DNA of 64,000 nt from Thermoanaerobaculia bacterium (lineage in GTDB: Bacteria > Acidobacteriota > Thermoanaerobaculia > Multivoradales > Multivoraceae), in contig CALOFD010000012.1 in assembly GCA_942492505.1 (NCBI GenBank), forward strand, positions 23,514 through 87,513, in the 5' to 3' direction. A model generated the notes under the pieces. It had not been told where the DNA came from. It did no database searches and was given only the letters and a program-made list of their open reading frames with translations. Positions within the stretch are counted from its first letter, which is position 1, and every line of letters begins with the position of its first letter. Both the position numbers and the translations under genes were made by a program. Positions 51,408 to 64,000 of this stretch are shown one piece after another.

Positions 51408-52376
51408 ATGCTCACCCGAAGACTTCTCCAGGGAATCCTCCTTCTCTTCGCCGCCTCGGCCCTGTCCTTCCTGCTTGCAGCCCTGACGCCCGGCGAATAC
51501 TTCGACGAACTGCGCCTCGACCCGAACGTTCCCGAAGACACGATCGAGTCGATGCGCCAGCGCTACGGCGTCGGCGACCCTCTAGCGCAGCGATACCTGC
51601 GCTGGCTCGGCTCGGTGACCCGCGGCGAACTCGGTTTCTCGCTGCGCTACCGAACCGAGGTCAGGCCCCTGCTCCTGCGAAGAGCCGGAAACACACTGCT
51701 GTTGACCGGCCTGGCGACTTCTTGCGCGTGGGCTCTCGCACTGCCGTTCGGTATCTGGGCGGCGACGAGCCCGAAGAAATGGGCTTCCTCCTTCTTCTCG
51801 GGATCGACGTCGCTGCTCCTCGCGATCCCCGATCTCGTCCTCGCCCTGCTCGCCCTGATGCTGGCGATCCGCTCCGGTTGGTTTCCCGTCGGGGGCATGA
51901 GGTCCTCGAACTTCGATTCCCTCGGGCCGATCGCCCGAGCTTCTCGACCTGGGGCATCATCTTTGCTGCCGGCCCTGGTGATCGCGCTCGGACTCCTCCC
52001 GACGCTCTCGCGCCATGTCCGCGCCGCGGTCGGCGAGACTCTCGACGCTCCCTTCGTTCGCGCAGCGCGGGCGAGGGGACTCCCCGAACGGACGATTCTC
52101 TATCGGCATGTCCTGCCGGCCGCTGCCAACCCCCTGATCAGTCTTGCAGGCCTGTCGATCGCCTCGCTGGCCGGGATCTCCCTGGTGGTCGAGGTGGTGC
52201 TGGCATGGCCGGGGATCGGCCCGCTGCTCCTCGAGTCGATCCAGGTCCATGACATCGACCTGGTCATCGGCGGCGTCCTGATCACGACGCTCCTCCTGGT
52301 GATCGGAAACGGACTCGCCGACCTCGCCTTGTGGATGACAGATCCTCGACTTCGAAGGCGCGATCCCTCTCCATGA
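51408..52376 (+). CDS. ABC transporter permease (Opp/Dpp B-type, peptide/nickel family)
   Basis: 322-aa ORF. The N-terminus MLTRRLLQGILLLFAASALSF...PGEYF and multiple TM helices match the OppB/DppB pattern. Confidence 0.88.
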   Translation: MLTRRLLQGILLLFAASALSFLLAALTPGEYFDELRLDPNVPEDTIESMRQRYGVGDPLAQRYLRWLGSVTRGELGFSLRYRTEVRPLLLRRAGNTLLLTGLATSCAWALALPFGIWAATSPKKWASSFFSGSTSLLLAIPDLVLALLALMLAIRSGWFPVGGMRSSNFDSLGPIARASRPGASSLLPALVIALGLLPTLSRHVRAAVGETLDAPFVRAARARGLPERTILYRHVLPAAANPLISLAGLSIASLAGISLVVEVVLAWPGIGPLLLESIQVHDIDLVIGGVLITTLLLVIGNGLADLALWMTDPRLRRRDPSP

Positions 52377-53341
52377 GTTCCCGTACGACCCCGCGCCTGC
52401 TGCCTGCCATCCTCGTTCTGGTCCTCATCCATGCGACAGCACTGCTGGCAGGTTTCTTCGGTCCCTACGAGCCCGCCGAGCAGGATCGATCGCGCCCCAG
52501 CGAGTCTCCGTCTTCGATCGACCTCCACGGCGCCGACGGCCGCGTCGGCCTGTTCGTGGCTGACCCGGGCGACATCGCCACGCCCACAGCTCCTCTCCAG
52601 TTCCTCGTCACACGCGACGACAGGGTCCGCCTACTCGGCGTCGATCCGCCCACCCGACTGAATCTGCTCGGAACCGACTCCCTCGGTCGCGATGTGTTCT
52701 CGAGACTGCTGTGGGGAGGTCGCGTCTCACTCCTCGCCGGTCTGGTCGCAACCTTTCTCTCGATCGCACTCGGGACGACACTCGGAATCGTCGCCGGCTT
52801 CTACGGAGGCCGTATCGACGCCCTCCTGATGCGGGTGGCAGATCTGTTCCTCGCGCTTCCGCTCCTCTATCTGCTTCTCGCGATCCGCGCTCTTCTCCCC
52901 CTGTCGATCTCGACCACCACCGCGTTCCTGCTTCTGATCGGGGTTCTCGGTCTCGCCGGATGGGCTCGACCGGCCCGTCTCGTGCGGGGCGTCGCCCTGG
53001 CCGCACGAGAGCGCGACTTCGTTCTGGCGGCGCGCTCCCTCGGCGCCAGTGACATCCACATCCTGTTTCGCCATGTCCTGCCCCAGACGCGAAGCGTGGT
53101 GCTCACACAGGCCGCTCTGCTCGCGCCGCAGTACGTCCTGGCCGAGGTCGCGCTTTCCTACTTCGGGGTCGGCGTCTCGGAACCCACTCCGAGTTGGGGG
53201 ACCATGCTGGCGGAGGGCGCCTCCTTCGCGGCTCTTTCAGTGCCCCATTGGTGGTTGCTCAGCCCCGCCCTGCTGCTGGTCGCCACGTTCGTGGCGTATC
53301 ATTCCCTGGCGCGATCGCTGGATGGAGGTTCGCACGGCTGA
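52373..53341 (+). CDS. ABC transporter permease (Opp/Dpp C-type)
   Basis: The ATG at 52373 overlaps the preceding stop (ATGA). Contains LLGTDSLGRDVFSRLLWGGRVSL, typical of OppC/DppC. Confidence 0.88.
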   Translation: MSSRTTPRLLPAILVLVLIHATALLAGFFGPYEPAEQDRSRPSESPSSIDLHGADGRVGLFVADPGDIATPTAPLQFLVTRDDRVRLLGVDPPTRLNLLGTDSLGRDVFSRLLWGGRVSLLAGLVATFLSIALGTTLGIVAGFYGGRIDALLMRVADLFLALPLLYLLLAIRALLPLSISTTTAFLLLIGVLGLAGWARPARLVRGVALAARERDFVLAARSLGASDIHILFRHVLPQTRSVVLTQAALLAPQYVLAEVALSYFGVGVSEPTPSWGTMLAEGASFAALSVPHWWLLSPALLLVATFVAYHSLARSLDGGSHG

Positions 53342-53350
53342 GAAGTTCCG

Positions 53351-55105
53351 ATGATTGAAACCGCCGCTCGACGGCCTGCCCGATGCTCCCTCGGACTGCT
53401 CGTGGCCCTCGTTGCCGCCCTGTCATTCGGCTGCGGTGACGCGAGCCCGGAGTCCGCGAGCGAGTCGGTCGAGCTGCCCCTTCAGCGCGGCGGACGGCTC
53501 GTTCTGACCCTGAAGAGCGAACCCGAGAGCTTCAATCCCGTCCTCGCCGTCGGCGCCAGCACGCACCGTATCGTCGATCGAATGCATGGCGACCTCCTGC
53601 ATATCGATCCGTTCACGCAGGAGGTGGTACCAAACCTCGCCGAGTCCTGGGACGTCTCGGCAGATGGCACGGTCTACACGGTTCACCTGCGAAAGGGACT
53701 TCGCTTCTCCGACGGGGAAGTCCTCGACGCAGATGACGTCGTGTTCACCTATCGAGTCCACCTCGATCCGTCGATCGCCAGTCCCCAGAGGGATCTGCTG
53801 TCTCCCGGCGGCACTCCCCTGACGATCGAGAAGGTCGACTCCGATACCGTCGAATTCAGCCTCCCCCGCCCGCTGGCGGCGGGCCCCAGACTCTTCGACT
53901 CCATCGCCATCCTGCCGGAGCACCGACTGCGCGAAGCCTGGTCGAGCGGCCGGCTCCAGGAGACCTGGCAGACCTCGACTCCGGCGTCGGAGATCGTTGG
54001 AGCCGGCCCCTTCACGCTCGGCGAGTACCGCAACGGCGAGTTCCTCGACCTCGACCGAAACCCCTACTACTGGAAGACCGGCGACGACGGCGACAGGCGT
54101 CCCTACCTCGACGGGATCCGCTTCCTCTTCGTCTCCGACGACGACGCTCGCGTACTTCGCTTTCAGGCCGGCGAGGCCCACATCATCGACGATCTCGGTT
54201 CCGACAACTTCGCCGCGCTGAGCAGTTCACAGGCCGACACCGGGATGCGACTCGTCGATGCTGGCCCCTCCCTCGAGCGCGAGATGCTGATCCCCAATCT
54301 CAACGATCTCCCGCCGAGCACCGCACCCGAGCACGTCCAGGCCCAGGCCTGGCTGGAGAGACCCGGCTTCCGCAGCGCCCTCTCCCTCGCCATCGACCGC
54401 GACAGCCTCGTTCGGCTGGCCTATCAGGGGCGCGCCAGCGCTCTGCGATCGAACGTCAGTCCGGGGGATCGCTTCTGGCACAACGATTCCCTGCCACCCC
54501 CGGACCGAGATCTCGCGCGCGCTCGCGAAACACTTGAGGGGGAAGGATTCCGATGGGCCGAAGACCAACTCATCGGTCCTGAGGGTGCCCCCGTCCGACT
54601 TTCGATCCTGACGTCTTCCACGAACTCCAAGCGCCTCAAGATGGCAGCCATCATCGAACAGGACCTGGCGGAGCTGGGGATCGAGGTCCGCGTCGTTTCG
54701 CTGCCCCACGGCGCCGTCGTCGAACGGCTCCTGCAGACCTTCGCCTACGACTTGATCCTCCTCGGCTTCGGAAGCGGTGACGCCGACCCCAATCCCGCTC
54801 TTCCCTTCCTCCTATCCACAGGCGGCCTTCACGTGTGGCGACTGAACGACACCGAGCCCTTGAGCCCCTGGCAGGCCGAGATCGATGCACTCATGAAAGC
54901 TCAACTCGTAGAGACCGACCGACAAGCCCGAAAACGCCTCTACGACCGCGTCCAGGAAATCGTGGCAGAAGAACTCCCCGTCATCCCCCTCGTATCCCCC
55001 CACGTCCTGGTAGGCGCCCAGGCCACCGTCGGCAACTTCCGCCCCGCCATCCTCGAACCGAATGCGATCTGGAACGCCGACGAGTTGTTCCTCGCCTCTC
55101 CCTGA
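53351..55105 (+). CDS. ABC transporter substrate-binding protein, family 5 (peptide/nickel)
   Basis: 584-aa ORF with a lipoprotein-like N-terminus (LVALVAALSFGCG) and SBP_bac_5-like sequence. No ATPase genes follow. Confidence 0.85.
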   Translation: MIETAARRPARCSLGLLVALVAALSFGCGDASPESASESVELPLQRGGRLVLTLKSEPESFNPVLAVGASTHRIVDRMHGDLLHIDPFTQEVVPNLAESWDVSADGTVYTVHLRKGLRFSDGEVLDADDVVFTYRVHLDPSIASPQRDLLSPGGTPLTIEKVDSDTVEFSLPRPLAAGPRLFDSIAILPEHRLREAWSSGRLQETWQTSTPASEIVGAGPFTLGEYRNGEFLDLDRNPYYWKTGDDGDRRPYLDGIRFLFVSDDDARVLRFQAGEAHIIDDLGSDNFAALSSSQADTGMRLVDAGPSLEREMLIPNLNDLPPSTAPEHVQAQAWLERPGFRSALSLAIDRDSLVRLAYQGRASALRSNVSPGDRFWHNDSLPPPDRDLARARETLEGEGFRWAEDQLIGPEGAPVRLSILTSSTNSKRLKMAAIIEQDLAELGIEVRVVSLPHGAVVERLLQTFAYDLILLGFGSGDADPNPALPFLLSTGGLHVWRLNDTEPLSPWQAEIDALMKAQLVETDRQARKRLYDRVQEIVAEELPVIPLVSPHVLVGAQATVGNFRPAILEPNAIWNADELFLASP

Positions 55106-55314
55106 AAGATCGAAACAAACGCCCTTCCCATCTCCGATCGAGTCGCTAGACGTCGGGGATCGAACTAGAACAACAGATTGAGAAACTCATCGAGCTGGAG
55201 AGCGACGAGGAGATCCGAGAGTTCATCGCATGGCTCGCAAGTGTTGGGGACTCGATCCTTGCTCCAGCGCTAGCTGGATTCCTCGATGCGCGCGGCCCGA
55301 CAGACGCTGATCCA

Positions 55315-58016
55315 GTGCAACTCAGGGTCGAAAGACTCGTTGATGTGGCGAAGCGTGCGGGGGCAAGCAGAACAACGGCCTTCATCTTCAAGGCCGCGGG
55401 AAACCACATCGCTGCGAACACCCGCGACGCGGAGACAGGCCTCAGCCTTCTCTCAGACGCCCTGGAGCTGTTCACATCCCTTGGAGACGACCTACAGGCA
55501 GGGATCACTCGGAGCTGCCTCATTCTTACCTTGGTGGAGACCGGTGATTTTGAGCGGGCGTCGGCAGAAGCCGGAACCGCCCGACAGACCTTCCAGAGAC
55601 TTGGCGATCAACTTCGGCTCGCAAGACTTGACGTGAACGAGGGCAACATCGCCTTCAAACAAGACCGATTCGCCGACTCAGAGCGTCTGTGGACCAGGGC
55701 CTTGGGAACCTTGATGGTTCGAGGCACCACTACCGACATCACCAATTGTCTGATCAACATAGGCTGCAGCAAGGTGCAGACGGGACACATACCGGAAGCC
55801 CTCAGGCTCTTTGAAAGAGCTAGCACCTTCCTTGCCGAGGAGGGACCGAGTCAGGCCAGACTTGTGCTCCTTTACAATCAAGCTTGGGCCCTCATGCACT
55901 GGGGGCATCACTCTCAAGCCCTCTCACGCCTCATGGCCCTAGAAAAGGCCTTTCTGGAAATAGGGAACCACTACTACGAGGGCCTGGTTCTCCTAGCTCT
56001 CGGCCAGATCCTTCTAGATCATTGGCTTCTGAGAGATGCCCGCCGTCGGATCGATCGGGCGCTGTCTCTGTTTGCGCGGCGCCACGCACCCTACGAACGT
56101 GCAAAGGCCTTCTTCCTTCTCGCAGTCTGTGAGTCGTCTTCCGGTGATCTGGATGTGGCAATGCAACTCCTCGATCAGGCCCAAGCTCGCTTTGAGAGAC
56201 TTGGCAATACAGCCTGGCTTCAGAGAATTAGGTTGCAGAAGGGACAGATACTCCTCGCAAGCGGACGGACGGAGCAAGCGCTGCGAATAGCACGACTATG
56301 CGAGTCGGACCTTGGGCCTCCAGCGACACCAGACATCGAATGCCTTTTCGACCTTCTCTACGGCCAATGTCTCGCAGCGACAGGGGAATCAAAACAGACC
56401 TTCGAACTCGCTCGAAGTCTGTTGCCAAGAGTGGTCCTGCTCGATCGAAAGCACCTTGAGATCGAAGCCCTAGCTCTAGTCGGGAGGTCGGCAGAAGACC
56501 TTGGCTTGGACAACCAAGCCGCCAAGGCCTACCTCCAAGCCGCTGCGCTCGTTGAATCCATCAGTGAGTCTCTACCACCACTAGACCTGAGAGGTGGATT
56601 CCTTGCTGGGAAGGTAGACGTCTACCAACGCCTATTTCTTCTGGCAGCTCGAAAGGGGGACGTCATCCGCGCCTTCGCCTCAATCGAGCGCTCCAAGGCT
56701 GTGAGATTTCACTACTACTCGTCGAAGCCGTTCTGGCAAGACACGACTGCAAGGAGCGGCAGCGCGGCTTCCGAGTTGAGTGCCGGGGCTGAAGAACTAA
56801 GAAGACTTTCCCACCAACTTCGTGAACTCCGAGCAAGCGAGCAGCGAAGAGGTGCCTCGCAGATCGGAGATCTCGCCTCAGTCCTTGAGTCCGAAGCCAC
56901 CGAAACGCTGAGGTTCATGGGAGTAAGGGGACACAAGGAAGGAGCAGGTCCGCTCCCTGAGCTGACAGATGTTCAGGAAGCTCTCGGTTCGCAAACTACT
57001 CTGCTGCACTATTACTCCACCGGCGATCAACTTTGGTGCTTGTCAGCCACGCGCGACAGCGCCAATCTGTTCGAGATTGGGAGCTCCTCTGAAATTGCCG
57101 AGGCCCTTCAGCTATTTAGGTACGCGCTAACTCCTGCAGCAGCAGGTAGAGACCAACAAGCCAGAACCAGAGCAGAGCATCACCTCAGTCGACTTCACAA
57201 CCTTCTCCTCGCACCTGTTGAAGGCACGCTACTCGAGCAGCTGATCGTCATTCCCGAGGGGAGTCTTTCCCGGGTGCCGTTCCATGCGCTCCTGGGACCT
57301 GATCGGGAGTACATGATCGATCGACACAGATTGACCGTCCAGCCCTCGGCGCAATGTCTGTCTGAATGCTCCAGTCAACCCGCAAAGAGCATTGGAGCAT
57401 CCCTATTGGTAGGTGTCGGCGACTCAGTAGCTACAGGCATGGGTGCCGAAGCCGAGCAGCTCTCAAGATTGATTCCAGGTGCTCGCCTTCTCCTAGGTCA
57501 CGATGCAACGGCGGCGGTCGTAGCAAACGAGATCGAGTCAGTCCAACTCGTCCACTTTGCCAGTCATGGAATGTTTGAGGAGCTAGGCCTCTCTTCTCCC
57601 ATCTCAGACTCGGTGATGGTCCCTTCTACCTTCACGACTTGGTCGGGCTGGATCTCACAAACATCGAACTTGCGGTGCTGAGCGGATGCAACATGGGGGT
57701 CGAGCCGGAAGGCCCAACGGCATACATGATGGCTTGGCCACATTTCTTAATGGCTTCTGGAGTGCGAGCTGTTGTTTCTGCCCTCTGGCGGGTTGATGAC
57801 GCAGCTAGCGTTTACTTCATGAGGTGCTTCTATGAAGGTCTCATGAGCGGGGTGCCCAAGGACGAATGTCTGAGACGAGCCTGTCTAAGCGTCCGTGAGA
57901 TTCGCAGGCATCCATACTTTTGGGCTCCCTTCGTCCTCGCAGGGTCAAGTGATGCAATTGAGTTTGCCCCCCCGCCCCCTTCTGAGGTTCACGATGTCAG
58001 CCAGCACTTCAGATAG
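55315..58016 (+). CDS. TPR-repeat CHAT-domain (caspase-like) protease, catalytic dyad intact; one frameshift; start unresolved
   Basis: Track ORFs 55315..57681 and 57639..58016. The His motif VHFASHG lies in the first, and the Cys motif LSGCNMG plus the terminal HPYFWAPFVLAG in the second. Adding one C to CCC (57598-57600) joins them (...LGLSSPHLRLGDGPFYLHDLVGLDL...). The same frame is open and protein-like back to 55150 with no ATG/GTG/TTG. Confidence 0.8.
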
Positions 58017-58082
58017 ACGAGTGCCTGCTACAGTTTCTGGACTGGGACGGGAAGAACTTAGGCTCAGAACCAGGTAGCTATA

Positions 58083-60932
58083 GTGCAGAAGGAATTCTCG
58101 GTCGATCTGACCGCAGTCCGCGCTCTCAGAACAGAGAACGAACGTCTTGAGTTCCTTGCTGCGAACCCATTAGCCGTGTCCCGAGAGGGTCTATCGCACT
58201 TAGCGGCAGAGGCAGTAGAACTCCTCTCATCTGATCTTGAAGGCTGCGATGATTTCCTTGAAACCTTGGAGTGGTTTTCCGAAAGAGCGAAGGATGACTA
58301 TTCCAGGGGCAGGGTGTTGCGCGCCAAGGCCAATGCGAGGTACGTGCAGGGGCGCTTGGAGGAGGCTGTAGGAGCATTCGAAGAGGCAGCGAACCTCTTC
58401 GCTTCAGCCGGGGAGGAACTTGACGAAGCAATCACGTACAGCTCCGGCCTTCTCTCGATTCTCCTGACGGGTGATCATCGTCGAGTCGAAGAATGGGCGC
58501 GCCGAGCACGATCGATCTTCGATGCACTCGGGGACGATCTGAGATTAGCTCGGCTGAACTTTAACTACGCGAACGTACTCTTCCGACGAGATCGCTGGGA
58601 GGATGCAGCGAAGAGCTATGAGGCTGCTTATGGAATCTTCAAGCGCCTAGGGAGTCACCGAGACGTCGCGACTTGCCTAAGCAACATGGCCGTATGCCAG
58701 ATAAGCGTTCACAACTCTGACAAGGCGGCCTATTTCTACAGCAGGGCTCGGTCCTACTGTGAGTCTCATGGACTGGCAGTGCTCACCGCGAGAATCGACT
58801 ACAACTATGCCTACCTTTTCTATCTCCGAGGTGAGTACACGACCTCTCTGGAGCTCTTTGAGCAAGCCCGAGAACGCTGCATCGCATTGGGGGACCAATA
58901 CCATCCTGTTCTCTGCAACCTCGACGAGGCAGAAATCTACCTAGAACTGAACCTGACCCAAGAAGCGACCACTCTGGCCTCAAGAGCGCACCAGGGCTTC
59001 GAAAGCTTGGGAATGCCCTATGAGAGCGCGAAGGCTCTTACTCTCTGGGCGATTGCCGTCGGCAGGCAAGGGAAATGGATCGCGGCTCTCGAGATGCTTC
59101 AACGCGCCCGCTCGATCTTTGAGCGAGAAGAGAACGAGGTTTACAAGAGCCAACTAGATCTTCATTCCGGGATAGTGCTTCTCAAGGCGGGCAGACCCTT
59201 TGAAGCTATCCGGTTAGCCAAACGCGCGCAGAAAGGTCTAGCTAGTCTGGGATTGCAGAGAAAGGAGGCCCAAGCATGCCTGCTGATCTGCAAAGGCCGA
59301 CTCGATCAACGGCACTTAGACGAGGCGGAAACAGAGCTTCGGAAAGCCTTCAGCCTTGCATCTGGACCTGGTAGCGCAACCGTTCTTTGGCAGGCCCACT
59401 ACCTCGCCGGAAGAATAGATCTTGAGAGGGGGGATCGAAGTTCAGCGGAACGAGCTTTCCGTCTGGCGCACGAGAGTCTTGAAGAGATCCGAAGCCACGT
59501 ACGTACAGAGGAGCAAAAGATTCCGCTCGTGGACGACAAGCTTGTCGTCTACGAAGAACTTGTTGTCCAACTGGCTTCGGAAACGCAGACTCCTGAGATC
59601 GCGGCGGAGGCCTTCAAGTTCGTCGAGAAGGCCAAAGCCAGGTCTCTCTCTGACATGGTCGCGACACGAGCAGCGACCCTGTCGGAAAGAACGTCAGGTC
59701 GCAGCCAGCTGGCATCCCAAGTCTCAAAGCTCCGGGAGGAGCTGAACTGGTACTACCGCCAGATAGACCTTCAAGAGATGAGGGGAGACGCGCACGAGCC
59801 CGGGAGCATGTCTCCCTTGCTGAATGCGAGCGAGCGTTATGAGGCGGACCTTCTCAAGTCCTTGGGTCGACTCTCGTCGACTGACAGGGAGGTTAGCTCA
59901 CTTCAAGAGGCATTGGTGGTTGATCCGTCTTCTATTCAGGAACTCCTCAGCCAAGATGAAGTCATCCTAGACTTCTATGAGGCCAAGGGAGTTATGTACG
60001 TCGCCACCCTAGATCAGAGTAGCGCGGAGATCATTCCCGCGACGCTCTCCTCTATCGCTAGTGACCTTTATACCGAGCTTCGATATGTAATGAGCCGACT
60101 CCAGGCTGACCCAGACACCGCGCGAAGCCCAAACGATCAAGCCGGCCTTGACTTGCAGCATCTCTTGGAGAGGCTTTTCGACGAGCTCATTTCACCGATA
60201 GCCCACCGCCTCAAACCAAAGCTGGTTGTGGTTCCATGTGGTGCCCTCTTCCACCTACCGTTTCACGCGCTGAACGGCCCCATAGGTCCCTTATCCAAAG
60301 AGCACCAAGTCACCTATTCGCCAAGCGCTACAACATGGTTTCTCTCTCGCTCAAGAGAAGCTTCGTCGAACACTGGTCTCCTCGTCGCGTTTGAACAACC
60401 TCGAATCAGCACTATTGAGGCATGCTTCAGAAACTCTCTGTTCAGGGCTGCAACCTCCCCTAACGATTTTGTCGAGGAAGCTCGTGAAGCAAGGACCATC
60501 TTCGCGGACGGCTCGGCGTCCTATCGACCAGACAATCCGATGTTCTCGACTCTGCGGATTGCCGGCAAAGACTACTCCCTGTTCGATCTTCTGAACTTGG
60601 ACTTGGACGCTCAACTATTCGTGCTTTCAGGGTTTCAGCAGACTTCGTTGGCAGCGAGCAAGGGTGACGAAGTCTTTGGTCTTTACAGGACCCTCCTGTA
60701 CGCAGGCTCACGGGCGATTGTCCACAACCTTTGGCGACCAAGCGCCCGTGCCCAGGAGAAGTTCGTGGTGAGGCATTGGCAAGACTGGCCTCCGGCACCA
60801 GCGTGCAGATCTCATACTCGGAGACGATGGACGAACTCCGTCAAACACTCTCAGCGGTCCTCACGAGTGGGGACCCTTCGTTCTCGTCAACTCAGTAAGG
60901 CCGAGGAGTGTTCAATAGCCGATCTAGCATAA
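58083..60932 (+). CDS. TPR-repeat CHAT-domain paralogue with substituted catalytic residues (predicted inactive); C-terminus frameshifted twice
   Basis: GTG start. It has TPR-like repeats and a CHAT-like C-terminal domain. The His motif position reads IFADGSASY and the Cys motif reads LSGFQQT. The canonical ending (FYEALARLASG...HEWGPFVLVNS) is recovered only through two -1 frame changes near 60765 and 60865, giving a probable true stop at 60916-60918. Confidence 0.78.
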   Translation: MQKEFSVDLTAVRALRTENERLEFLAANPLAVSREGLSHLAAEAVELLSSDLEGCDDFLETLEWFSERAKDDYSRGRVLRAKANARYVQGRLEEAVGAFEEAANLFASAGEELDEAITYSSGLLSILLTGDHRRVEEWARRARSIFDALGDDLRLARLNFNYANVLFRRDRWEDAAKSYEAAYGIFKRLGSHRDVATCLSNMAVCQISVHNSDKAAYFYSRARSYCESHGLAVLTARIDYNYAYLFYLRGEYTTSLELFEQARERCIALGDQYHPVLCNLDEAEIYLELNLTQEATTLASRAHQGFESLGMPYESAKALTLWAIAVGRQGKWIAALEMLQRARSIFEREENEVYKSQLDLHSGIVLLKAGRPFEAIRLAKRAQKGLASLGLQRKEAQACLLICKGRLDQRHLDEAETELRKAFSLASGPGSATVLWQAHYLAGRIDLERGDRSSAERAFRLAHESLEEIRSHVRTEEQKIPLVDDKLVVYEELVVQLASETQTPEIAAEAFKFVEKAKARSLSDMVATRAATLSERTSGRSQLASQVSKLREELNWYYRQIDLQEMRGDAHEPGSMSPLLNASERYEADLLKSLGRLSSTDREVSSLQEALVVDPSSIQELLSQDEVILDFYEAKGVMYVATLDQSSAEIIPATLSSIASDLYTELRYVMSRLQADPDTARSPNDQAGLDLQHLLERLFDELISPIAHRLKPKLVVVPCGALFHLPFHALNGPIGPLSKEHQVTYSPSATTWFLSRSREASSNTGLLVAFEQPRISTIEACFRNSLFRAATSPNDFVEEAREARTIFADGSASYRPDNPMFSTLRIAGKDYSLFDLLNLDLDAQLFVLSGFQQTSLAASKGDEVFGLYRTLLYAGSRAIVHNLWRPSARAQEKFVVRHWQDWPPAPACRSHTRRRWTNSVKHSQRSSRVGTLRSRQLSKAEECSIADLA

Positions 60933-60944
60933 GATCGGTGTGCA

Positions 60945-61655
60945 ATGTCCACCCCATCGAACATGCTCAGCCCCTTGAACAGGAACCCTCGCATAGCCCT
61001 CAAAAAGCTTGAAGAAGAGGTGCGAAAGACAAGAACGGGTGTCATGTACGCTCTGAACATGATGCTTGATCTCAAGGATCTTCGGACCGGTTTCCATGCG
61101 ACCCGTCTCGCAGAGTGGGCAGTGAGGGTTGCCGAAGACGTTGGAGTTACCAAGGAGGATCTCGAAGATATTGAGCGAGCCTCTCTCCTGCACGATATCG
61201 GGAAGATAGGGGTCCCTGACCAAATTCTTCTCAAACCGGGGAAGCTCACAGAATCCGAGCGAGAGCTAGCCGAGAAGCACCCTGAGTTCGGTTGGGCCAT
61301 TCTGCGACCGATCCCTGGCTTTGAGAAAGCTAGCCTCCTTGTGCTCCACCACCATGAACGCTGGGACGGAGGGGGCTACCCGGCAGGTCTAACGGGATCC
61401 GAGATCCCGCTGGGTTCTAGAATCGTGTCGATCGTAGATGCCTACGACGCGATGATCTCGGATCGAGCCTACCGGTCTGGCCTGCCCAAAGAGGAGGCAC
61501 TTAGACGCCTAAGGAAGGATGCGGGGAGCCAGTTCGATCCGGAATTGACCGAGTTTTTTATCCGGCTTGTTGAAAGCGTTGAGGATGATGCCGAGGGCAG
61601 CATGGAACGGGCTATTCCTGACTTCGCGATCGCTCGAGTTCAACAATCCCTTTGA
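60945..61655 (+). CDS. stand-alone HD-GYP domain protein (cyclic-dinucleotide phosphodiesterase family)
   Basis: 236-aa ORF with LLHDIGKIGVPD and HHHERWDGGGYPAGL. There is no receiver or other sensor domain. Confidence 0.88.
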   Translation: MSTPSNMLSPLNRNPRIALKKLEEEVRKTRTGVMYALNMMLDLKDLRTGFHATRLAEWAVRVAEDVGVTKEDLEDIERASLLHDIGKIGVPDQILLKPGKLTESERELAEKHPEFGWAILRPIPGFEKASLLVLHHHERWDGGGYPAGLTGSEIPLGSRIVSIVDAYDAMISDRAYRSGLPKEEALRRLRKDAGSQFDPELTEFFIRLVESVEDDAEGSMERAIPDFAIARVQQSL

Positions 61656-61858
61656 CTCATTGAATCTTGTTCGCATAAAATTGCTCAGACAACCGATTGC
61701 GTTCAGGGGCATCCGCTCCTGAAAGGTAGCCCGACGAAACTCTCCGACTTTGGAGGAGGTCGCTGGTCCTGCCTTTCTAGCCCCTAGGACTTAGGCCAAC
61801 ATAGTAGAGAAGATCTAGAACACCTACCTACCAGTCTCTGGCTGCGTAGAACCGCAAA

Positions 61859-61902
61859 CCCCGCTTCACTCCGGATTCTTGCTGGAGGTGACGGGGGTTT
61901 TT
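61859..61902 (+). terminator. intrinsic-terminator-like hairpin + T-tract just upstream of the micro-ORF cassette
   Basis: CCCCG-ct-TCAC-TCCGG-attcttg-CTGGA-g-GTGA-CGGGG followed by G-TTTTT (61898-61902). About 14 bp are paired and the loop is 7 nt. Confidence 0.55.
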
Positions 61903-61938
61903 GCGTTTATAGGGACTTTAACCAATTTGGGAGAGACG

Positions 61939-61988
61939 ATGAGCACCATCAAGAGTTGGTCAGAGCATTGACTGCATCAAGGAAGTAA
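61939..61988 (+). pseudogene. decayed leading copy of the micro-ORF
   Basis: ATGAGCACCATCAAGAGTTGGTCAGAGCATTGACTGCATCAAGGAAGTAA matches the GGTCAGAGCAT(C/T)GACTGCATCAAGGAA core. However, it is about 7 nt shorter, out of frame (MSTIKSWSEH*), and an extra G destroys the normal stop. Confidence 0.6.
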
Positions 61989-62021
61989 CCCTCAATCCCC
62001 ATCCAAACGGAGACACACACC

Positions 62022-62078
62022 ATGAAGATCAAAACCAGCGTCAAGGTCGGTCAGAGCATCGACTGCATCAAGGAATAA
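62022..62078 (+). CDS. micro-ORF copy 1, 18-aa peptide MKIKTSVKVGQSIDCIKE
   Basis: GGAG lies 9 nt upstream. ATG...TAA, with codon 10 = GGT. Confidence 0.7.
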   Translation: MKIKTSVKVGQSIDCIKE

Positions 62079-62111
62079 CCCTCAATCCCCATCCAAACGG
62101 AGACACACACT

Positions 62112-62168
62112 ATGAAGATCAAAACCAGCGTCAAGGTCGGGCAGAGCATCGACTGCATCAAGGAATAA
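62112..62168 (+). CDS. micro-ORF copy 2, identical 18-aa peptide
   Basis: GGAG lies 9 nt upstream. ATG...TAA, with codon 10 = GGG. Confidence 0.7.
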   Translation: MKIKTSVKVGQSIDCIKE

Positions 62169-62201
62169 CCCTCAATCCCCATCCAACCGGAGACACACAC
62201 C

Positions 62202-62258
62202 ATGAAGATCAAAACCAGCGTCAAGGTCGGACAGAGCATCGACTGCATCAAGGAATAG
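62202..62258 (+). CDS. micro-ORF copy 3, identical 18-aa peptide
   Basis: GGAG lies 9 nt upstream. ATG...TAG, with codon 10 = GGA. Confidence 0.7.
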   Translation: MKIKTSVKVGQSIDCIKE

Positions 62259-62297
62259 CTACCTTTCACACCTCATAAACGATCAGGGAGTTTCACC

Positions 62298-62363
62298 ATG
62301 AAGATCAAAACCAGCGTCAAGGTCGGTCAAGAGAGATCGAGAGGAGTACCCATCCAGGAATAA
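62298..62363 (+). CDS. micro-ORF copy 4, variant 21-aa peptide MKIKTSVKVGQERSRGVPIQE
   Basis: GGGAG lies 7 nt upstream. The first 11 codons match the other copies in amino acid sequence (codon 11 CAA instead of CAG, both Gln), the tail diverges, and the frame and stop (TAA) are retained. Confidence 0.65.
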   Translation: MKIKTSVKVGQERSRGVPIQE

Positions 62364-62396
62364 CCCCGGACACCCAAGCAACCGGAGACACACACC

Positions 62397-62453
62397 ATGA
62401 AGATCAAAACCAGCGTCAAGGTCGGGCAGAGCATCGACTGCATCAAGGAATAG
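62397..62453 (+). CDS. micro-ORF copy 5, identical 18-aa peptide
   Basis: GGAG lies 9 nt upstream. ATG...TAG, with codon 10 = GGG. Confidence 0.7.
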   Translation: MKIKTSVKVGQSIDCIKE

Positions 62454-62461
62454 TCGAATCC

Positions 62462-62608
62462 ATGAAAACAAAGACAAACCTCAAGGCCGGATTCTCTGGG
62501 AGCGTCAAACCGCAGGTGTTTGAACTTCTCGAGACTCTGGTGAATCGACCCTCAGATCATCGATTCACAGTCAAGACTGGCCAGGCCGTTTCGGCCATTC
62601 TCGAATAG
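62462..62608 (+). CDS. 48-aa ORF related to the micro-ORF peptides at both ends
   Basis: MKTKTNLKAGFSGSVKPQVFELLETLVNRPSDHRFTVKTGQAVSAILE*. It starts 8 nt after copy 5, and the AAGGAA inside the copy-5 end could serve as its SD. The N-terminal MKTKTNLKAG and the C-terminal VKTGQAVSAILE parallel MKIKTSVKVG and VKVGQSIDCIKE. Confidence 0.6.
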   Translation: MKTKTNLKAGFSGSVKPQVFELLETLVNRPSDHRFTVKTGQAVSAILE

Positions 62609-62616
62609 CACTCAGC

Positions 62617-62682
62617 GCCGCGCCTGGTCGCGGCGGCTGTGTGAACCGCAGACCGGGGACCTCACCCAGGAGTGGTCTGCGG
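62617..62682. terminator. two GC-rich hairpins between convergent genes (possible bidirectional terminator)
   Basis: GCCGCG-cctggt-CGCGGC (62617-62634) and CCGCAGACC-19 nt-GGTCTGCGG (62646-62682). There is no clear U-tract. Confidence 0.4.
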
Positions 62683-62750
62683 GTGGCGAACAGCCATCTG
62701 GCCGTGGTCTATTCAGCCACGCCCATCCCCCCCGGGGCCTTCTCCCCCGG

Positions 62751-63998
62751 CTACGAGTGACCGACGACTGCCAGGGTCGGTGATCTCGCGATGATCACCT
62801 TGGCTGCGAGCATCGCGCTCTCGCCGTCGAGGCCACCCAGACTCTCGTCCAGGATCGAGATGTCGTGCTCCTGGATCAGGGTTCTCGCAATGAAGACGCG
62901 GCTGCGTTCTCCATGAGAGAGCTGCCAGCCGTTCTCTCCCACCATTTGGAACAGTCCCGACGGCATTCGCTCGAGGAGATCTCCGAGACCGAGTTCCCGG
63001 CAGAGTTCTTCGGCCCTATCGAGATCTTCCTTCATCGGCGGCCAGCGGTGCCCCATGAGGATGTTGAACGCCAACGACTCGCTCAGGATGTGGTTCTCGT
63101 GGAACTGCGGAGCGAGAATCACCGACTTGCGCCAGAATGCCGTGCCGGCACTCGTTCGATCGAGCCCCCTGAACAGTAGAAGCCCTGTCGAGGGACTGCG
63201 AAGTCCGGCAAGCAGGCTGGCCAGCGTCGACTTTCCCGAACCTGAGGGCCCCTCGAGAAGGATCCGGTCGCCCGCTGCGACCTCGAGGTCGAGATCGTCG
63301 ATGACCGGCTGAGTTCTCGAGGCGTACTGAAAGCCGAGTTCCTTCGCCTCCAGAAGCACTCGTCCCCTCGACTGCCCGCGAGTCAAGGCGAGATCGGGAT
63401 CCGATCGGAGAGAAGGCCGTGCTGCCGCGTCGAACATTTCCGCAACCTGATCCCAGGCGATCGAGGCACCCGACAATTGGCTCAGCCCGAGGGTGACTCT
63501 TCGAAGTGCGCCGTAGGCGAGCAAGATCCCTCCAAACGCCACCGCCAGGCTCTCACTCGAGGCACGGTCGCCCACCAGCAGCGGGGCGAGCCCGAGAACC
63601 CCGACGATCATCCAGCCCCGCGGCAGCGCAGATCCAAGACTCGCGGCAAGCCGATCGAGTCCTCGCGAAGCCCGACTGTATGCCTCGACTTCCCGGTCCT
63701 CGTCTTCGTGCCAACGAGCTCTCGATTCCTGGGCCTGACGCGTGCGATGTCCGAGGAGGCTCTCCACCAGAGCGTAGGTCAGACTCAGCCTGCCTTCGGT
63801 CCAGCCCCGTCTTCGGGCCGCGTAGCGACGCCCCACCCAGTAGACCACCACACTCCAGCCGACCAGCAGCAGGGCGTGGAGGGGGCCTCCGGCGCCGAGC
63901 CCCAGTACGACGGCCGCGAAGGCGACCTCGATGGCCCCCAACAGAAGGTGGAAGCCCCCGTTCAGGGCGAGCGACTCCATCGCTTCCGATTCGAGCAC
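62751..63998 (-). CDS. ABC exporter, fused TMD-NBD (N-terminus beyond the window end)
   Basis: The ORF is open to the window edge. About 200 aa of TM region precede the NBD, which has Walker A GPSGSGKST, an atypical signature LSHGERSR and Walker B ISILDES. It converges on the micro-ORF cassette. Confidence 0.85.
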   Translation of the reverse strand: MLESEAMESLALNGGFHLLLGAIEVAFAAVVLGLGAGGPLHALLLVGWSVVVYWVGRRYAARRRGWTEGRLSLTYALVESLLGHRTRQAQESRARWHEDEDREVEAYSRASRGLDRLAASLGSALPRGWMIVGVLGLAPLLVGDRASSESLAVAFGGILLAYGALRRVTLGLSQLSGASIAWDQVAEMFDAAARPSLRSDPDLALTRGQSRGRVLLEAKELGFQYASRTQPVIDDLDLEVAAGDRILLEGPSGSGKSTLASLLAGLRSPSTGLLLFRGLDRTSAGTAFWRKSVILAPQFHENHILSESLAFNILMGHRWPPMKEDLDRAEELCRELGLGDLLERMPSGLFQMVGENGWQLSHGERSRVFIARTLIQEHDISILDESLGGLDGESAMLAAKVIIARSPTLAVVGHS

Positions 63999-64000
63999 CC

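What the first reader, a model, noticed from the sequence alone, without database searches (positions are those of the whole stretch)
55150..60932. Paired TPR-CHAT paralogues: one with an intact caspase-like His/Cys dyad, one with both catalytic residues replaced
The first protein has HFASHG and LSGCNMG, the CHAT His and Cys motifs. The second aligns over the same region but reads IFADGSASY and LSGFQQT, so His and Cys are both lost.

The changes are substitutions, not the indel type of error seen elsewhere in this assembly. Both proteins carry long N-terminal TPR arrays.

An adjacent active/pseudo-protease pair suggests a heteromeric or regulator/effector arrangement. TPR arrays are typical peptide-binding modules.
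Basis: partly seen in the sequence, partly recalled or inferred. Interest (0 to 1): 0.6.

Follow-up and report, generated by a model that had tools for sequence, protein, structure and literature searches.

The report
Active and dead CHAT protease pair
Two neighbouring genes encode look-alike caspase-type (TPR-CHAT) proteins, one with and one without its catalytic residues. The 'dead' one is a conserved, selected partner found in the same gene cluster in several soil Acidobacteria, so it is most likely a regulatory pseudo-protease rather than a broken gene.

Summary
Gene A (55150-58016) carries the CHAT His and Cys. Gene B (58083-60932) has Ser and Phe at exactly those columns, which align with the proven dyad H585/C627 of the Craspase TPR-CHAT.

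The pair is not a local accident. The order A, B, HD-GYP, small peptide genes, then convergent C39/ABC exporters recurs in five other contigs. B belongs to a clade of 14 His-less TPR-CHAT proteins, and at least 22 clusters at 50% identity lack the His in a wider search.

Conservation is reciprocal. B keeps its TPR and middle domains but lets its CHAT domain drift; A does the opposite. A second, diverged copy of B in the same assembly gives dN/dS of about 0.07, so B is under selection.

Most relatives (about 70 Acidobacteriota genomes) have one active TPR-CHAT between an Opp-type peptide importer and an HD-GYP.

Both genes here carry single-base deletions, and the assembly is error-prone: rpoC is frameshifted and a contig-end overlap was left unmerged. 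The second copy reads through both sites in B, so those two are probably artefacts. Reads could not be checked.

A physical A-B heteromer and peptide gating remain inference. This is a new variant of a known kind (pseudo-protease), of moderate interest.

The parts
51408..53341 (+). Two ABC permease genes (BPD_transp_1) of an Opp/Dpp-type peptide importer; conserved upstream context
   Evidence: Pfam hits. They are 55-59% identical to the L005 permeases, each in one frame. The same genes lie upstream in most of the 79 related genome loci.
53351..55105 (+). Family-5 solute-binding protein (OppA/DppA-like)
   Evidence: SBP_bac_5, E=2.5e-77. This gene lies directly upstream of the TPR-CHAT gene in 63 of 69 assessable genome loci.
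55150..58016 (+). Gene A: TPR-CHAT with an intact His/Cys dyad. As assembled it is split into ORFs 55315-57681 and 57639-58016.
   Evidence: Its orthologue is P0124 (30% identity). tblastn shows homology from 55159.
57553..57570 (+). Gene A catalytic His motif HFASHG
   Evidence: Coordinates. The column aligns with H585 of the Craspase TPR-CHAT.
57583..57586 (.). Site of a missing base in gene A, between the His and Cys motifs
   Evidence: Three-frame translation, DNA, and a frame switch in tblastn at 57567/57588. This site lies outside the duplicated contig end, so it could not be cross-checked.
57678..57698 (+). Gene A catalytic Cys motif LSGCNMG (in the shifted frame)
   Evidence: Coordinates. 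The column aligns with C627 of the Craspase TPR-CHAT.
58083..60932 (+). Gene B: TPR-CHAT pseudo-protease with His replaced by Ser and Cys by Phe. The conceptual stop after frame correction is at 60916-60918.
   Evidence: dN/dS is 0.07 against the C1 copy.
60498..60524 (+). Gene B degenerate His site IFADGSASY
   Evidence: Coordinates; alignment. The C1 copy has the same codons.
60624..60644 (+). Gene B degenerate Cys site LSGFQQT
   Evidence: Coordinates; alignment. The C1 copy has the same codons.
60771..60776 (.). First C-terminal frame shift in gene B; probably an assembly error
   Evidence: The C1 copy has one more base here and reads FVVKLMARLASG in frame.
60853..60857 (.). Second C-terminal frame shift in gene B; probably an assembly error
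   Evidence: The C1 copy has two fewer bases here and reads RQTLSGPHEWGPFVLVN-stop in frame.
60945..61655 (+). Stand-alone HD-GYP domain protein, carrying the motifs LLHDIGK and HHERWDGGGYP
   Evidence: HD_5, E=4e-41. Motifs. It is the third gene of the module in all pair loci. An HD-GYP lies downstream of the TPR-CHAT in 57 of 62 assessable loci.
62022..62608 (+). Tandem micro-ORFs (MKIKTSVKVGQSIDCIKE and a variant) plus a 48-aa peptide gene (62462-62608)
   Evidence: The same peptide family, including micro-ORF arrays, is present in L005, L007 and L008.
62751..63998 (-). Convergent ABC exporter, cut by the window end. A C39-peptidase ABC exporter follows beyond the window, at window-equivalent 64895-67510.
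   Evidence: ABC_tran hit. tblastn with the L005 exporters gives 60% and 61% identity, each in one frame.

Best explanation
Gene B is a real, selectively maintained, catalytically dead TPR-CHAT (a pseudo-protease). Gene A is its catalytically competent neighbour.

Together with a stand-alone HD-GYP phosphodiesterase they form a conserved three-gene unit. It sits between an Opp-type peptide importer on one side and small exported-peptide genes with C39/ABC exporters on the other.

B descends from the single, active TPR-CHAT that occupies this position in most Acidobacteriota. In its lineage the catalytic His was lost and the CHAT domain relaxed, while the TPR array and helical middle domain stayed under strong constraint. 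A shows the opposite pattern.

The most likely working model is a division of labour. B is the non-catalytic sensor or scaffold subunit, with its TPR binding a peptide or partner. A is the protease it docks or regulates. Read-out would be through proteolysis and c-di-GMP turnover by the HD-GYP.

My odds for each step:
- B is a conserved, selected, dead protease paired with an active one: about 0.9 (shown).
- Division of labour between A and B: about 0.6 (inferred from conservation patterns).
- Physical A-B heteromer: about 0.4 (inferred).
- Imported peptide as the ligand: about 0.35 (inferred from gene context).

The single-base frame shifts in this MAG are most likely assembly errors (about 0.65).
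For: 1. Catalytic assignment: the His/Cys columns equal H585/C627 of solved Craspase TPR-CHAT. B has Ser/Phe there.
2. Conserved module: A (H/C intact), B (His lost) and HD-GYP lie in that order in L005, L007, L008, L009 and a JGI contig. Peptide genes and C39/ABC exporters lie downstream wherever the contig reaches that far.
3. Phylogeny: the 14 His-less proteins form one clade (support 96), the pair-type B subclade has support 99, and the A clade 100. The A and B topologies are congruent. At least 22 of 137 full-length 50%-identity representatives lack the His.
4. Reciprocal conservation, as mean pairwise identity for TPR/middle/CHAT: active single-copy proteins 0.49/0.45/0.58; B 0.51/0.54/0.39; A 0.29/0.26/0.40.
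5. Selection in this very lineage: the C12 and C1 copies of B differ mainly at third codon positions (98 against 12+15). dS is 0.22, dN is 0.016, and dN/dS is 0.07.
6. Same fold and architecture for both: AF2 models of a B orthologue (pLDDT 88) and an A orthologue (pLDDT 83) show TPR array, helical middle domain, small beta unit and CHAT. The best PDB matches to the B model are Csx29, separase and the dimeric TPR-CHAT anti-sigma DdvA.
7. Context: the binding protein is directly upstream in 63/69 loci and an HD-GYP is downstream in 57/62 related loci. A PilZ gene lies next to an A-like gene in L102.
8. Assembly errors: rpoC is frameshifted. The C1 copy is in frame at both C-terminal shift sites of B.
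Against: - His-less B proteins exist without an adjacent A. L010 and L027 have the binding protein directly upstream. L023 has only a convergent HD-GYP called beside B. L049 and L067 pair B with a TPR-only paralogue plus HD-GYP. L019 is a single His-to-Glu gene. So the dead CHAT does not strictly need an active neighbour, and His loss probably came before A joined.
- A-like genes occur without B (L102, L110).
- Only six pair loci are known. A metagenome scan with an A profile found no more.
- In the wider sample the His was lost at least 3 times, so loss may simply be tolerated.
- Frame shifts are enriched in A and B: 3 plus a missing start in 5.8 kb, against none in 8.8 kb of flanking syntenic genes. 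Both window proteins also sit on long branches. These points would fit recent decay in this organism.
- No binding, activity or multimer evidence of any kind exists.
Confidence: 0.55

Rival explanations
1. B works on its own as a non-catalytic TPR sensor or scaffold tied to the HD-GYP, so the output is c-di-GMP rather than proteolysis. A is a later, functionally separate addition, for instance a protease that matures or degrades the locus's peptides. There would be no A-B complex.
For: - B-type proteins with HD-GYP but without A: L049 and L067 (B plus a TPR-only protein plus HD-GYP), L023, L010 and L027.
- The TPR-CHAT/HD-GYP linkage is far older and wider than the pair, at 57/62 loci.
- A, the peptide genes and the C39 exporters appear together only in the pair-type subclade.
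- A is a deep, separate lineage.
Against: - A and B trees are congruent and the genes are always adjacent on one strand in the subclade.
- The reciprocal domain conservation is what a shared function split between two subunits would give.
- There is a precedent for TPR-CHAT dimers with active sites at the interface (DdvA).
Confidence: 0.3
2. In this particular organism the pair is being lost. The single-base deletions and the missing start codon are real, so A and B are young pseudogenes. This is not exclusive of the explanations above for the family as a whole.
For: - Three deletions plus no canonical start in 5.8 kb, against none in 8.8 kb of flanking syntenic genes.
- A crude genome-wide estimate gives at most about 1 candidate frame shift per 10 kb.
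- Terminal branches are long: B 1.09 against about 0.6 for its sisters, and A 2.19 against 0.85.
- The Cys is also lost here, unlike in most B proteins.
Against: - There are no in-frame stops in 954 and 945 corrected codons, against 26-39 in the other frames.
- dN/dS is 0.07 between the two copies of B.
- The C1 copy is in frame at both B sites.
- The assembly demonstrably has indel errors (rpoC) and an unmerged, indel-ridden contig-end overlap covering B.
Confidence: 0.25
3. B is still a protease that uses non-canonical residues.
For: Most B proteins keep the Cys and the flanking RxDNPMFS loop.
Against: - The residue at the His column varies freely (S, K, R, Q, T, E, D, A), so it is not a conserved substitute.
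- The window's B lacks both His and Cys, and also the preceding conserved His.
- C627A and C627S kill the Craspase protease.
- The CHAT domain of B is its least conserved part.
Confidence: 0.03
4. The apparent loss of His and Cys is a sequencing or alignment artefact.
For: The assembly is error-prone.
Against: - Two independently assembled copies carry the same codons.
- No alternative frame hides a His motif (my reading of the DNA).
- Three alignment methods agree.
- All 13 nearest relatives from other samples also lack the His.
Confidence: 0.01

Closest known systems
Csx29 / TPR-CHAT of type III-E CRISPR (Craspase)
   Same: - Same two-part architecture (TPR array plus CHAT) and same catalytic dyad columns.
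- Best structural match to the AF2 model of a B orthologue (8eey_B, E=1e-15).
- Its protease is switched allosterically by a bound partner.
   Different: - No gRAMP/Cas7-11 or CRISPR context here.
- About 950 aa, with a helical middle domain and a beta unit, against about 700 aa.
- The NCBIfam Csx29 model scores 34-43 bits against a cut-off of 300.
- B lacks the dyad.
Caspase-8 / cFLIP(L), and pseudo-caspases in general (from my own knowledge)
   Same: A catalytically dead paralogue with the same fold that partners and tunes an active caspase-fold protease. This is the nearest functional analogy for an A-B heteromer.
   Different: - Eukaryotic C14 caspases, not CHAT.
- The heterodimer is proven there and only inferred here.
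- No death-fold domains here.
Separase (C50), with its pseudo-protease domain next to the active protease domain
   Same: Helical repeat region plus a CHAT-like protease. Human and yeast separase are among the top fold matches. An inactive caspase-like module supports the active one.
   Different: In separase the two modules are in one chain, and regulation is by securin and phosphorylation. Here they are two separate full-length paralogues.
Bacterial pseudo-orthocaspases (PMC6426788)
   Same: Prokaryotic caspase-fold proteins in which the His-Cys dyad is replaced yet the protein is conserved.
   Different: - C14 orthocaspases of cyanobacteria with Tyr/Ser replacements.
- Not CHAT, not TPR-fused, and not described as paired with an active neighbour in an operon.
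DdvA, a transmembrane anti-sigma factor with a TPR-CHAT domain (PMC11506125)
   Same: A TPR-CHAT used as a signalling or regulatory device. It is dimeric through TPR contacts, with active sites facing the dimer interface and an 'incomplete' active site. It is a structural match (8rot).
   Different: - Periplasmic and membrane-anchored.
- A homodimer that keeps His and Cys.
- Controls an ECF sigma factor.
RRNPP-type peptide receptors (Rap-Phr, NprR, PlcR) with Opp import
   Same: A cytoplasmic TPR receptor encoded beside genes for a small exported peptide and an oligopeptide importer. The TPR profile hits RapF and RapJ structures at E about 1e-11. Single-type loci even carry a secreted subtilase, as in Phr processing.
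   Different: - The output domain is a CHAT protease or pseudo-protease, not an HTH or phosphatase.
- The hosts are Gram-negative Acidobacteriota.
- Peptide binding is untested.

Membership tests
CHAT domain family (Pfam PF12770) | Significant match to the CHAT profile above the gathering score | tested here: met
   Gene A scores 72.7 and 86.6 bits in its two frame pieces, and gene B scores 65.8 bits. The cut-off is 24 bits.
CHAT domain family (Pfam PF12770) | Caspase-like His-Cys catalytic dyad | tested here: met
   This row is for gene A. HFASHG and LSGCNMG align with H585 and C627 of the Craspase TPR-CHAT.
Active CHAT protease (gene B) | Caspase-like His-Cys catalytic dyad | tested here: not met
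   Ser and Phe occupy the dyad columns, and the second assembled copy has the same codons. B belongs to the fold family but not to the active enzymes.
Pseudoenzyme (pseudo-protease) | Homologous fold retained | tested here: met
   hhalign probability is 99.85% for the window's B CHAT region. The AF2 model of orthologue P0006 has pLDDT 88.3, with pLDDT mostly 80-97 across the CHAT part. Csx29 and separase are the top fold hits.
Pseudoenzyme (pseudo-protease) | Maintained by selection rather than decaying | tested here: met
   - dN/dS is 0.07 between the two copies in this assembly.
- About 190 columns are invariant across 9 B proteins at 41-61% identity.
- The clade has 14 members, plus further 50%-identity representatives.
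Csx29 (type III-E CRISPR TPR-CHAT, NCBIfam NF041237) | Score above the curated cut-off of the family model | tested here: not met
   33.9 bits for the B orthologue and 43.1 bits for the A orthologue, against a cut-off of 300.
Csx29 (type III-E CRISPR TPR-CHAT, NCBIfam NF041237) | Encoded beside gRAMP/Cas7-11 and a CRISPR array | tested here: not met
   The neighbours are an importer, an HD-GYP, peptide genes and ABC exporters in all six pair loci. PADLOC finds no defence family.
RRNPP peptide receptors | TPR receptor encoded with its cognate exported peptide and dependent on Opp import | tested here: inconclusive
   The gene context fits and the TPR profile hits Rap structures. No RRNPP family model passes its cut-off; RNPP_C scores 16 bits against 26.5. 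Peptide binding is untested.
RRNPP peptide receptors | HTH or phosphatase effector domain | tested here: not met
   The C-terminal domain is CHAT.
Heteromeric active/pseudo-protease complex (cFLIP-like) | Physical complex between the dead and the active paralogue | not testable with these tools
   Only single chains can be modelled here. The evidence is indirect: adjacency, congruent trees and reciprocal conservation.

The most novel reading that the evidence does not exclude
This would be a bacterial counterpart of caspase-8/cFLIP wired to quorum-type peptide sensing. An exported and re-imported peptide binds the conserved TPR of the dead subunit B. B then docks and switches the protease A in a TPR-CHAT heterodimer. 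The protease in turn controls c-di-GMP signalling through the co-encoded HD-GYP. That would be an RRNPP-like circuit in Gram-negative Acidobacteria with a protease as its output.
Probability: 0.15. Interest if true: 0.8.

Novelty: new variant of a known kind. Interest (0 to 1): 0.55.

Why it matters
CHAT proteases have recently become known as switchable effectors in CRISPR type III-E and III-B, gasdermin and anti-sigma systems. Their much larger 'orphan' population in soil bacteria is unstudied.

This analysis shows three things:
- One large Acidobacterial TPR-CHAT family is locked into a peptide-importer/HD-GYP neighbourhood.
- A sizeable branch of it has become catalytically dead while staying under selection.
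- In one sub-branch the dead protein is always encoded next to an active paralogue with the mirror-image conservation pattern.

That gives a concrete, testable case of pseudo-enzyme regulation of a caspase-fold protease in bacteria. It also suggests a link between peptide signalling, proteolysis and c-di-GMP in a phylum that dominates soils but has few characterised signalling systems.

Tried and rejected
- **Single-sequence phmmer of the A orthologue against the PDB:** nothing found. A family profile was needed.
- **NCBIfam and PADLOC:** no family for the peptides, and no defence system for A, B or the HD-GYP. A defence-system reading (Craspase-like or CBASS-like) was therefore dropped.
- **Codon-usage Viterbi count of frame shifts genome-wide:**
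  - The first version, run on each strand separately, over-called shadow frames.
  - The joint 7-state version found rpoC's shift but is blind in the low-GC island and has no control genome.
  - I use it only as a rough upper bound.
- **Metagenome scan with an A-type profile:** no further pairs.
- **Hidden His motif behind compensating indels in B:** considered. No alternative frame gives one, and the spacing between the flanking AR and DNPMFS anchors equals that of the orthologues (my reading).
- **Programmed frameshifting in gene A:** considered and rejected. There is no slippery site, and the orthologues are in a single frame.
- **TPR-only partners in L049/L067 as A proteins that lost CHAT:** rejected. 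They are closer to the B/single type.
- **Literature:** searches for CHAT pseudo-proteases, or for TPR-CHAT with HD-GYP or Opp, found nothing.
Full report
**What is there**

Two long same-strand ORFs fill 55150-60932. Gene A is assembled as 55315-57681 plus 57639-58016 in another frame. Gene B is 58083-60932.

Both hit TPR_12 and CHAT (PF12770) well above the Pfam cut-offs.

**Catalytic-site assignment**

- In a MAFFT alignment of 206 full-length homologues from the protein search, 199 have His and Cys in the two columns. Gene B has Ser and Phe.
- hhalign of the window's B CHAT region against a profile of active members gives probability 99.85%. It pairs 'iHIAtHg' with 'ifadgsa' and 'LSGC' with 'lsgf'.
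- The same profile, searched against PDB sequences, aligns the family's His and Cys with H585 and C627 of the Scalindua TPR-CHAT (chain 7x8a_D numbering).
- PMC9729208 names these residues as the catalytic dyad and reports that C627A and C627S abolish cleavage.

**Is it an error?**

The window is C12:23514-87513 of a 3.77-Mb MAG that is 73% complete. The assembly has clear problems:

- rpoC switches frame at C13:9584.
- The N-terminal half of rpoB is missing.

Gene A lacks one base at about 57583 and has no canonical start before 55315, although homology begins at 55159. Gene B lacks single bases at about 60774 and 60855.

The last 9.4 kb of contig C12, from window 58586 onward, is duplicated at the start of contig C1. 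Identity is 90-93%, with 44 gap openings in 3.8 kb.

- Substitutions between the two copies sit overwhelmingly at third codon positions: 98 against 12+15 in gene B, and 62 against 7+4 in the ABC exporter. So these are two real, diverged alleles or strains, and the indels are noise on top.
- The C1 copy reads straight through both C-terminal shift sites of B (FVVKLMARLASG...RQTLSGPHEWGPFVLVN-stop). It carries the same Ser and Phe codons.
- After correction, neither gene has an in-frame stop over 954 and 945 codons, against 26-39 in each other frame.

I conclude that the substitutions are real and the two frame shifts in B are probably artefacts. The shift in gene A lies outside the overlap and stays open.

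Against a pure-error reading, the lesions are enriched here. None occur in 8.8 kb of flanking syntenic genes.

**The pair is conserved**

The best homologues of A (P0124) and of B (P0006) lie on the same 26.9-kb contig. In L005, L007 (a 6.8-Mb Thermoanaerobaculia chromosome), L008, L009 and a JGI contig the order is A, B, then HD-GYP on one strand.

- All four partner A proteins that could be read keep His and Cys.
- All eight nearest relatives of B lack the His, with S, K, R or Q in its place. Six of the eight keep the Cys.
- Where the contigs reach far enough, there follow peptide genes with the conserved ends MKxKTxxKAG...KTGQAVAAILE, arrays of 17-20-codon micro-ORFs of the same family, and two convergent ABC exporters, one with a C39 peptidase domain.
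- In the window's own contig these exporters are intact.

**Wider family**

A scan of one genome per species returned 80 loci, almost all Acidobacteriota. The typical locus has:

- transporter ATPases, two permeases and a family-5 binding protein;
- one TPR-CHAT with an intact dyad;
- a ~200-aa protein with no Pfam hit;
- a secreted subtilase;
- an HD-GYP.

The binding protein is directly upstream in 63 of 69 assessable loci. An HD-GYP lies within 5.5 kb downstream in 57 of 62.

**Trees**

FastTree and IQ-TREE both give these results:

- The A proteins form a deep separate clade (support 100).
- The 14 His-less proteins form one clade (support 96) inside the single-copy type.
- The pair-type B proteins form a subclade (support 99) whose topology mirrors that of the A proteins.

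A second His-less subclade (L027, L023, L049, L067) has no adjacent A. In L049 and L067, B faces a convergent HD-GYP preceded by a 475-526-aa TPR-only protein. That protein is closer to the B/single type than to A. L010 and L027 have the binding protein directly upstream of B. L019 is an independent His-to-Glu loss in a single-copy locus.

An exhaustive profile search found 22 His-less proteins among 137 full-length 50%-identity representatives. They need at least 3-4 changes of state on the tree.

So the loss of the catalytic His is older and wider than the A-B adjacency.

**Selection and division of labour**

Mean pairwise identity by region:

| Group | TPR | Middle | CHAT |
|---|---|---|---|
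| Deep representatives of the active single-copy type | 0.49 | 0.45 | 0.58 |
| B proteins | 0.51 | 0.54 | 0.39 |
| A proteins | 0.29 | 0.26 | 0.40 |

The dead protein keeps its repeat array and middle domain as tightly as active relatives do, and lets the CHAT domain drift. The active partner does the reverse.

Between the two copies in this assembly, B has dS 0.22 and dN 0.016, so dN/dS is 0.07. By region, dN/dS is 0.06 for the TPR and 0.05 for the middle domain. The CHAT part and the HD-GYP are nearly identical between the copies, so that stretch is uninformative and the locus looks mosaic.

AF2 models of a B orthologue (pLDDT 88.3, pTM 0.82) and an A orthologue (pLDDT 83.1) show the same four modules. 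The B model's best PDB matches are Csx29, separase and the dimeric TPR-CHAT anti-sigma factor DdvA. DdvA dimerises through its TPR regions, with active sites facing the interface (PMC11506125).

**Interpretation**

Shown:

- B is a conserved, selected, catalytically dead CHAT paralogue.
- In one lineage it is always encoded immediately after an active paralogue and before an HD-GYP.
- The whole family is tied to a peptide importer and an HD-GYP.

Inferred:

- B acts as the sensing or scaffolding subunit and A as the protease, possibly in a heteromer.
- The ligand is a peptide brought in by the importer.
- The output involves c-di-GMP.

The main rival is that B serves the HD-GYP independently, and that A came later together with the peptide and exporter genes. 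The B-without-A loci favour this rival.

**Other context**

- A, B and the HD-GYP are 55-61% GC (55-59% in four of the five pair loci) against 62-73% for their flanks. Fifty-one single-type loci show no such dip.
- The module is rare among relatives. B-like hits at E<=1e-20 occur in 9 of the 61 genomes searched (the window's own plus 60 relatives), and the pair only in the window's own genome and G006.
- L007 is flanked by transposases. Horizontal movement of the A-B-HD block is therefore plausible but not tested.

**Literature**

Searches found no description of CHAT pseudo-proteases, or of TPR-CHAT linked to HD-GYP or Opp. The nearest described cases are pseudo-orthocaspases of cyanobacteria (PMC6426788).

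**Verdict**

This is a new variant of a known kind, of moderate interest.

Noticed in passing
window 58586-64000 (= C12:82099-87513, continuing to the contig end) versus contig C1:1274-10625: The last 9.4 kb of contig C12 is present a second time at the start of contig C1. Identity is 90-93%. Differences sit mostly at third codon positions, and there are many indels. This is an unmerged overlap of two strain alleles. Divergence is mosaic: dS is 0.41 in the TPR part of B, about 0.02-0.03 in B's CHAT part and the HD-GYP, and 0.24 in the ABC exporter.
   Followed up: yes
contig C1:1-1273 (outside the window): 1.27 kb of unrelated sequence at 32% GC is joined directly to codon 167 of the second copy of gene B. 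It is either a chimeric contig end or an insertion that disrupts B in the other strain.
   Followed up: partly
contig C13:5586-11631 (outside the window): rpoC changes reading frame at about 9584. rpoB is represented only by profile positions 678-1238, with unrelated sequence upstream. These are evidence of indel errors and a misjoin in this MAG.
   Followed up: yes
L005:14064-14322 and L008:14046-14425: Tandem micro-ORF arrays of the same peptide family as window 62022-62453 precede the ~50-aa peptide gene in other pair loci too: 3 copies of MKVRT..KAGQVANAILE in L005 and 4 copies of MKV[RK]TN[IV]KAGNLIHS... in L008. So the array is a conserved part of the module.
   Followed up: partly
window 55106-62750; L005, L007, L008, L009: A, B and the HD-GYP are about 2-14 GC points lower than the flanking genes in every pair locus (55-61% against 62-73%). 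Fifty-one single-type loci show no dip. The genome's own codon model does not recognise A and B as coding.
   Followed up: partly
L049:10896-13269 and L067:2561-4808: In a sister subclade, the His-less TPR-CHAT faces a convergent HD-GYP preceded by a 475-526-aa TPR-only paralogue with no CHAT domain at all. This is a further step of degeneration.
   Followed up: partly
L029:10983-13176 and most Terriglobia loci: Single-type loci carry a conserved ~200-aa protein (with Cys pairs, no Pfam hit) and a secreted Peptidase_S8 between the TPR-CHAT and the HD-GYP. This recalls the extracellular processing of Phr peptides in Bacillus.
   Followed up: partly
L102:2097-2819 (-): A PilZ-domain gene (a c-di-GMP receptor fold) lies directly after an A-like TPR-CHAT (44% identical to P0124) in a metagenome contig. 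This is another hint of a c-di-GMP connection.
   Followed up: no
L019:7953-10883: An independent loss of the catalytic His (to Glu, with Cys kept) in a single-copy locus. Its genome shows no other CHAT protein, but the MAG is incomplete.
   Followed up: partly
window 55150-55315: The reading frame of gene A is open and homologous to orthologues from 55159, but holds no ATG, GTG or TTG until 55315. Either a rare start codon (ATT at 55177 or CTG at 55195) is used, or there is another indel upstream.
   Followed up: partly
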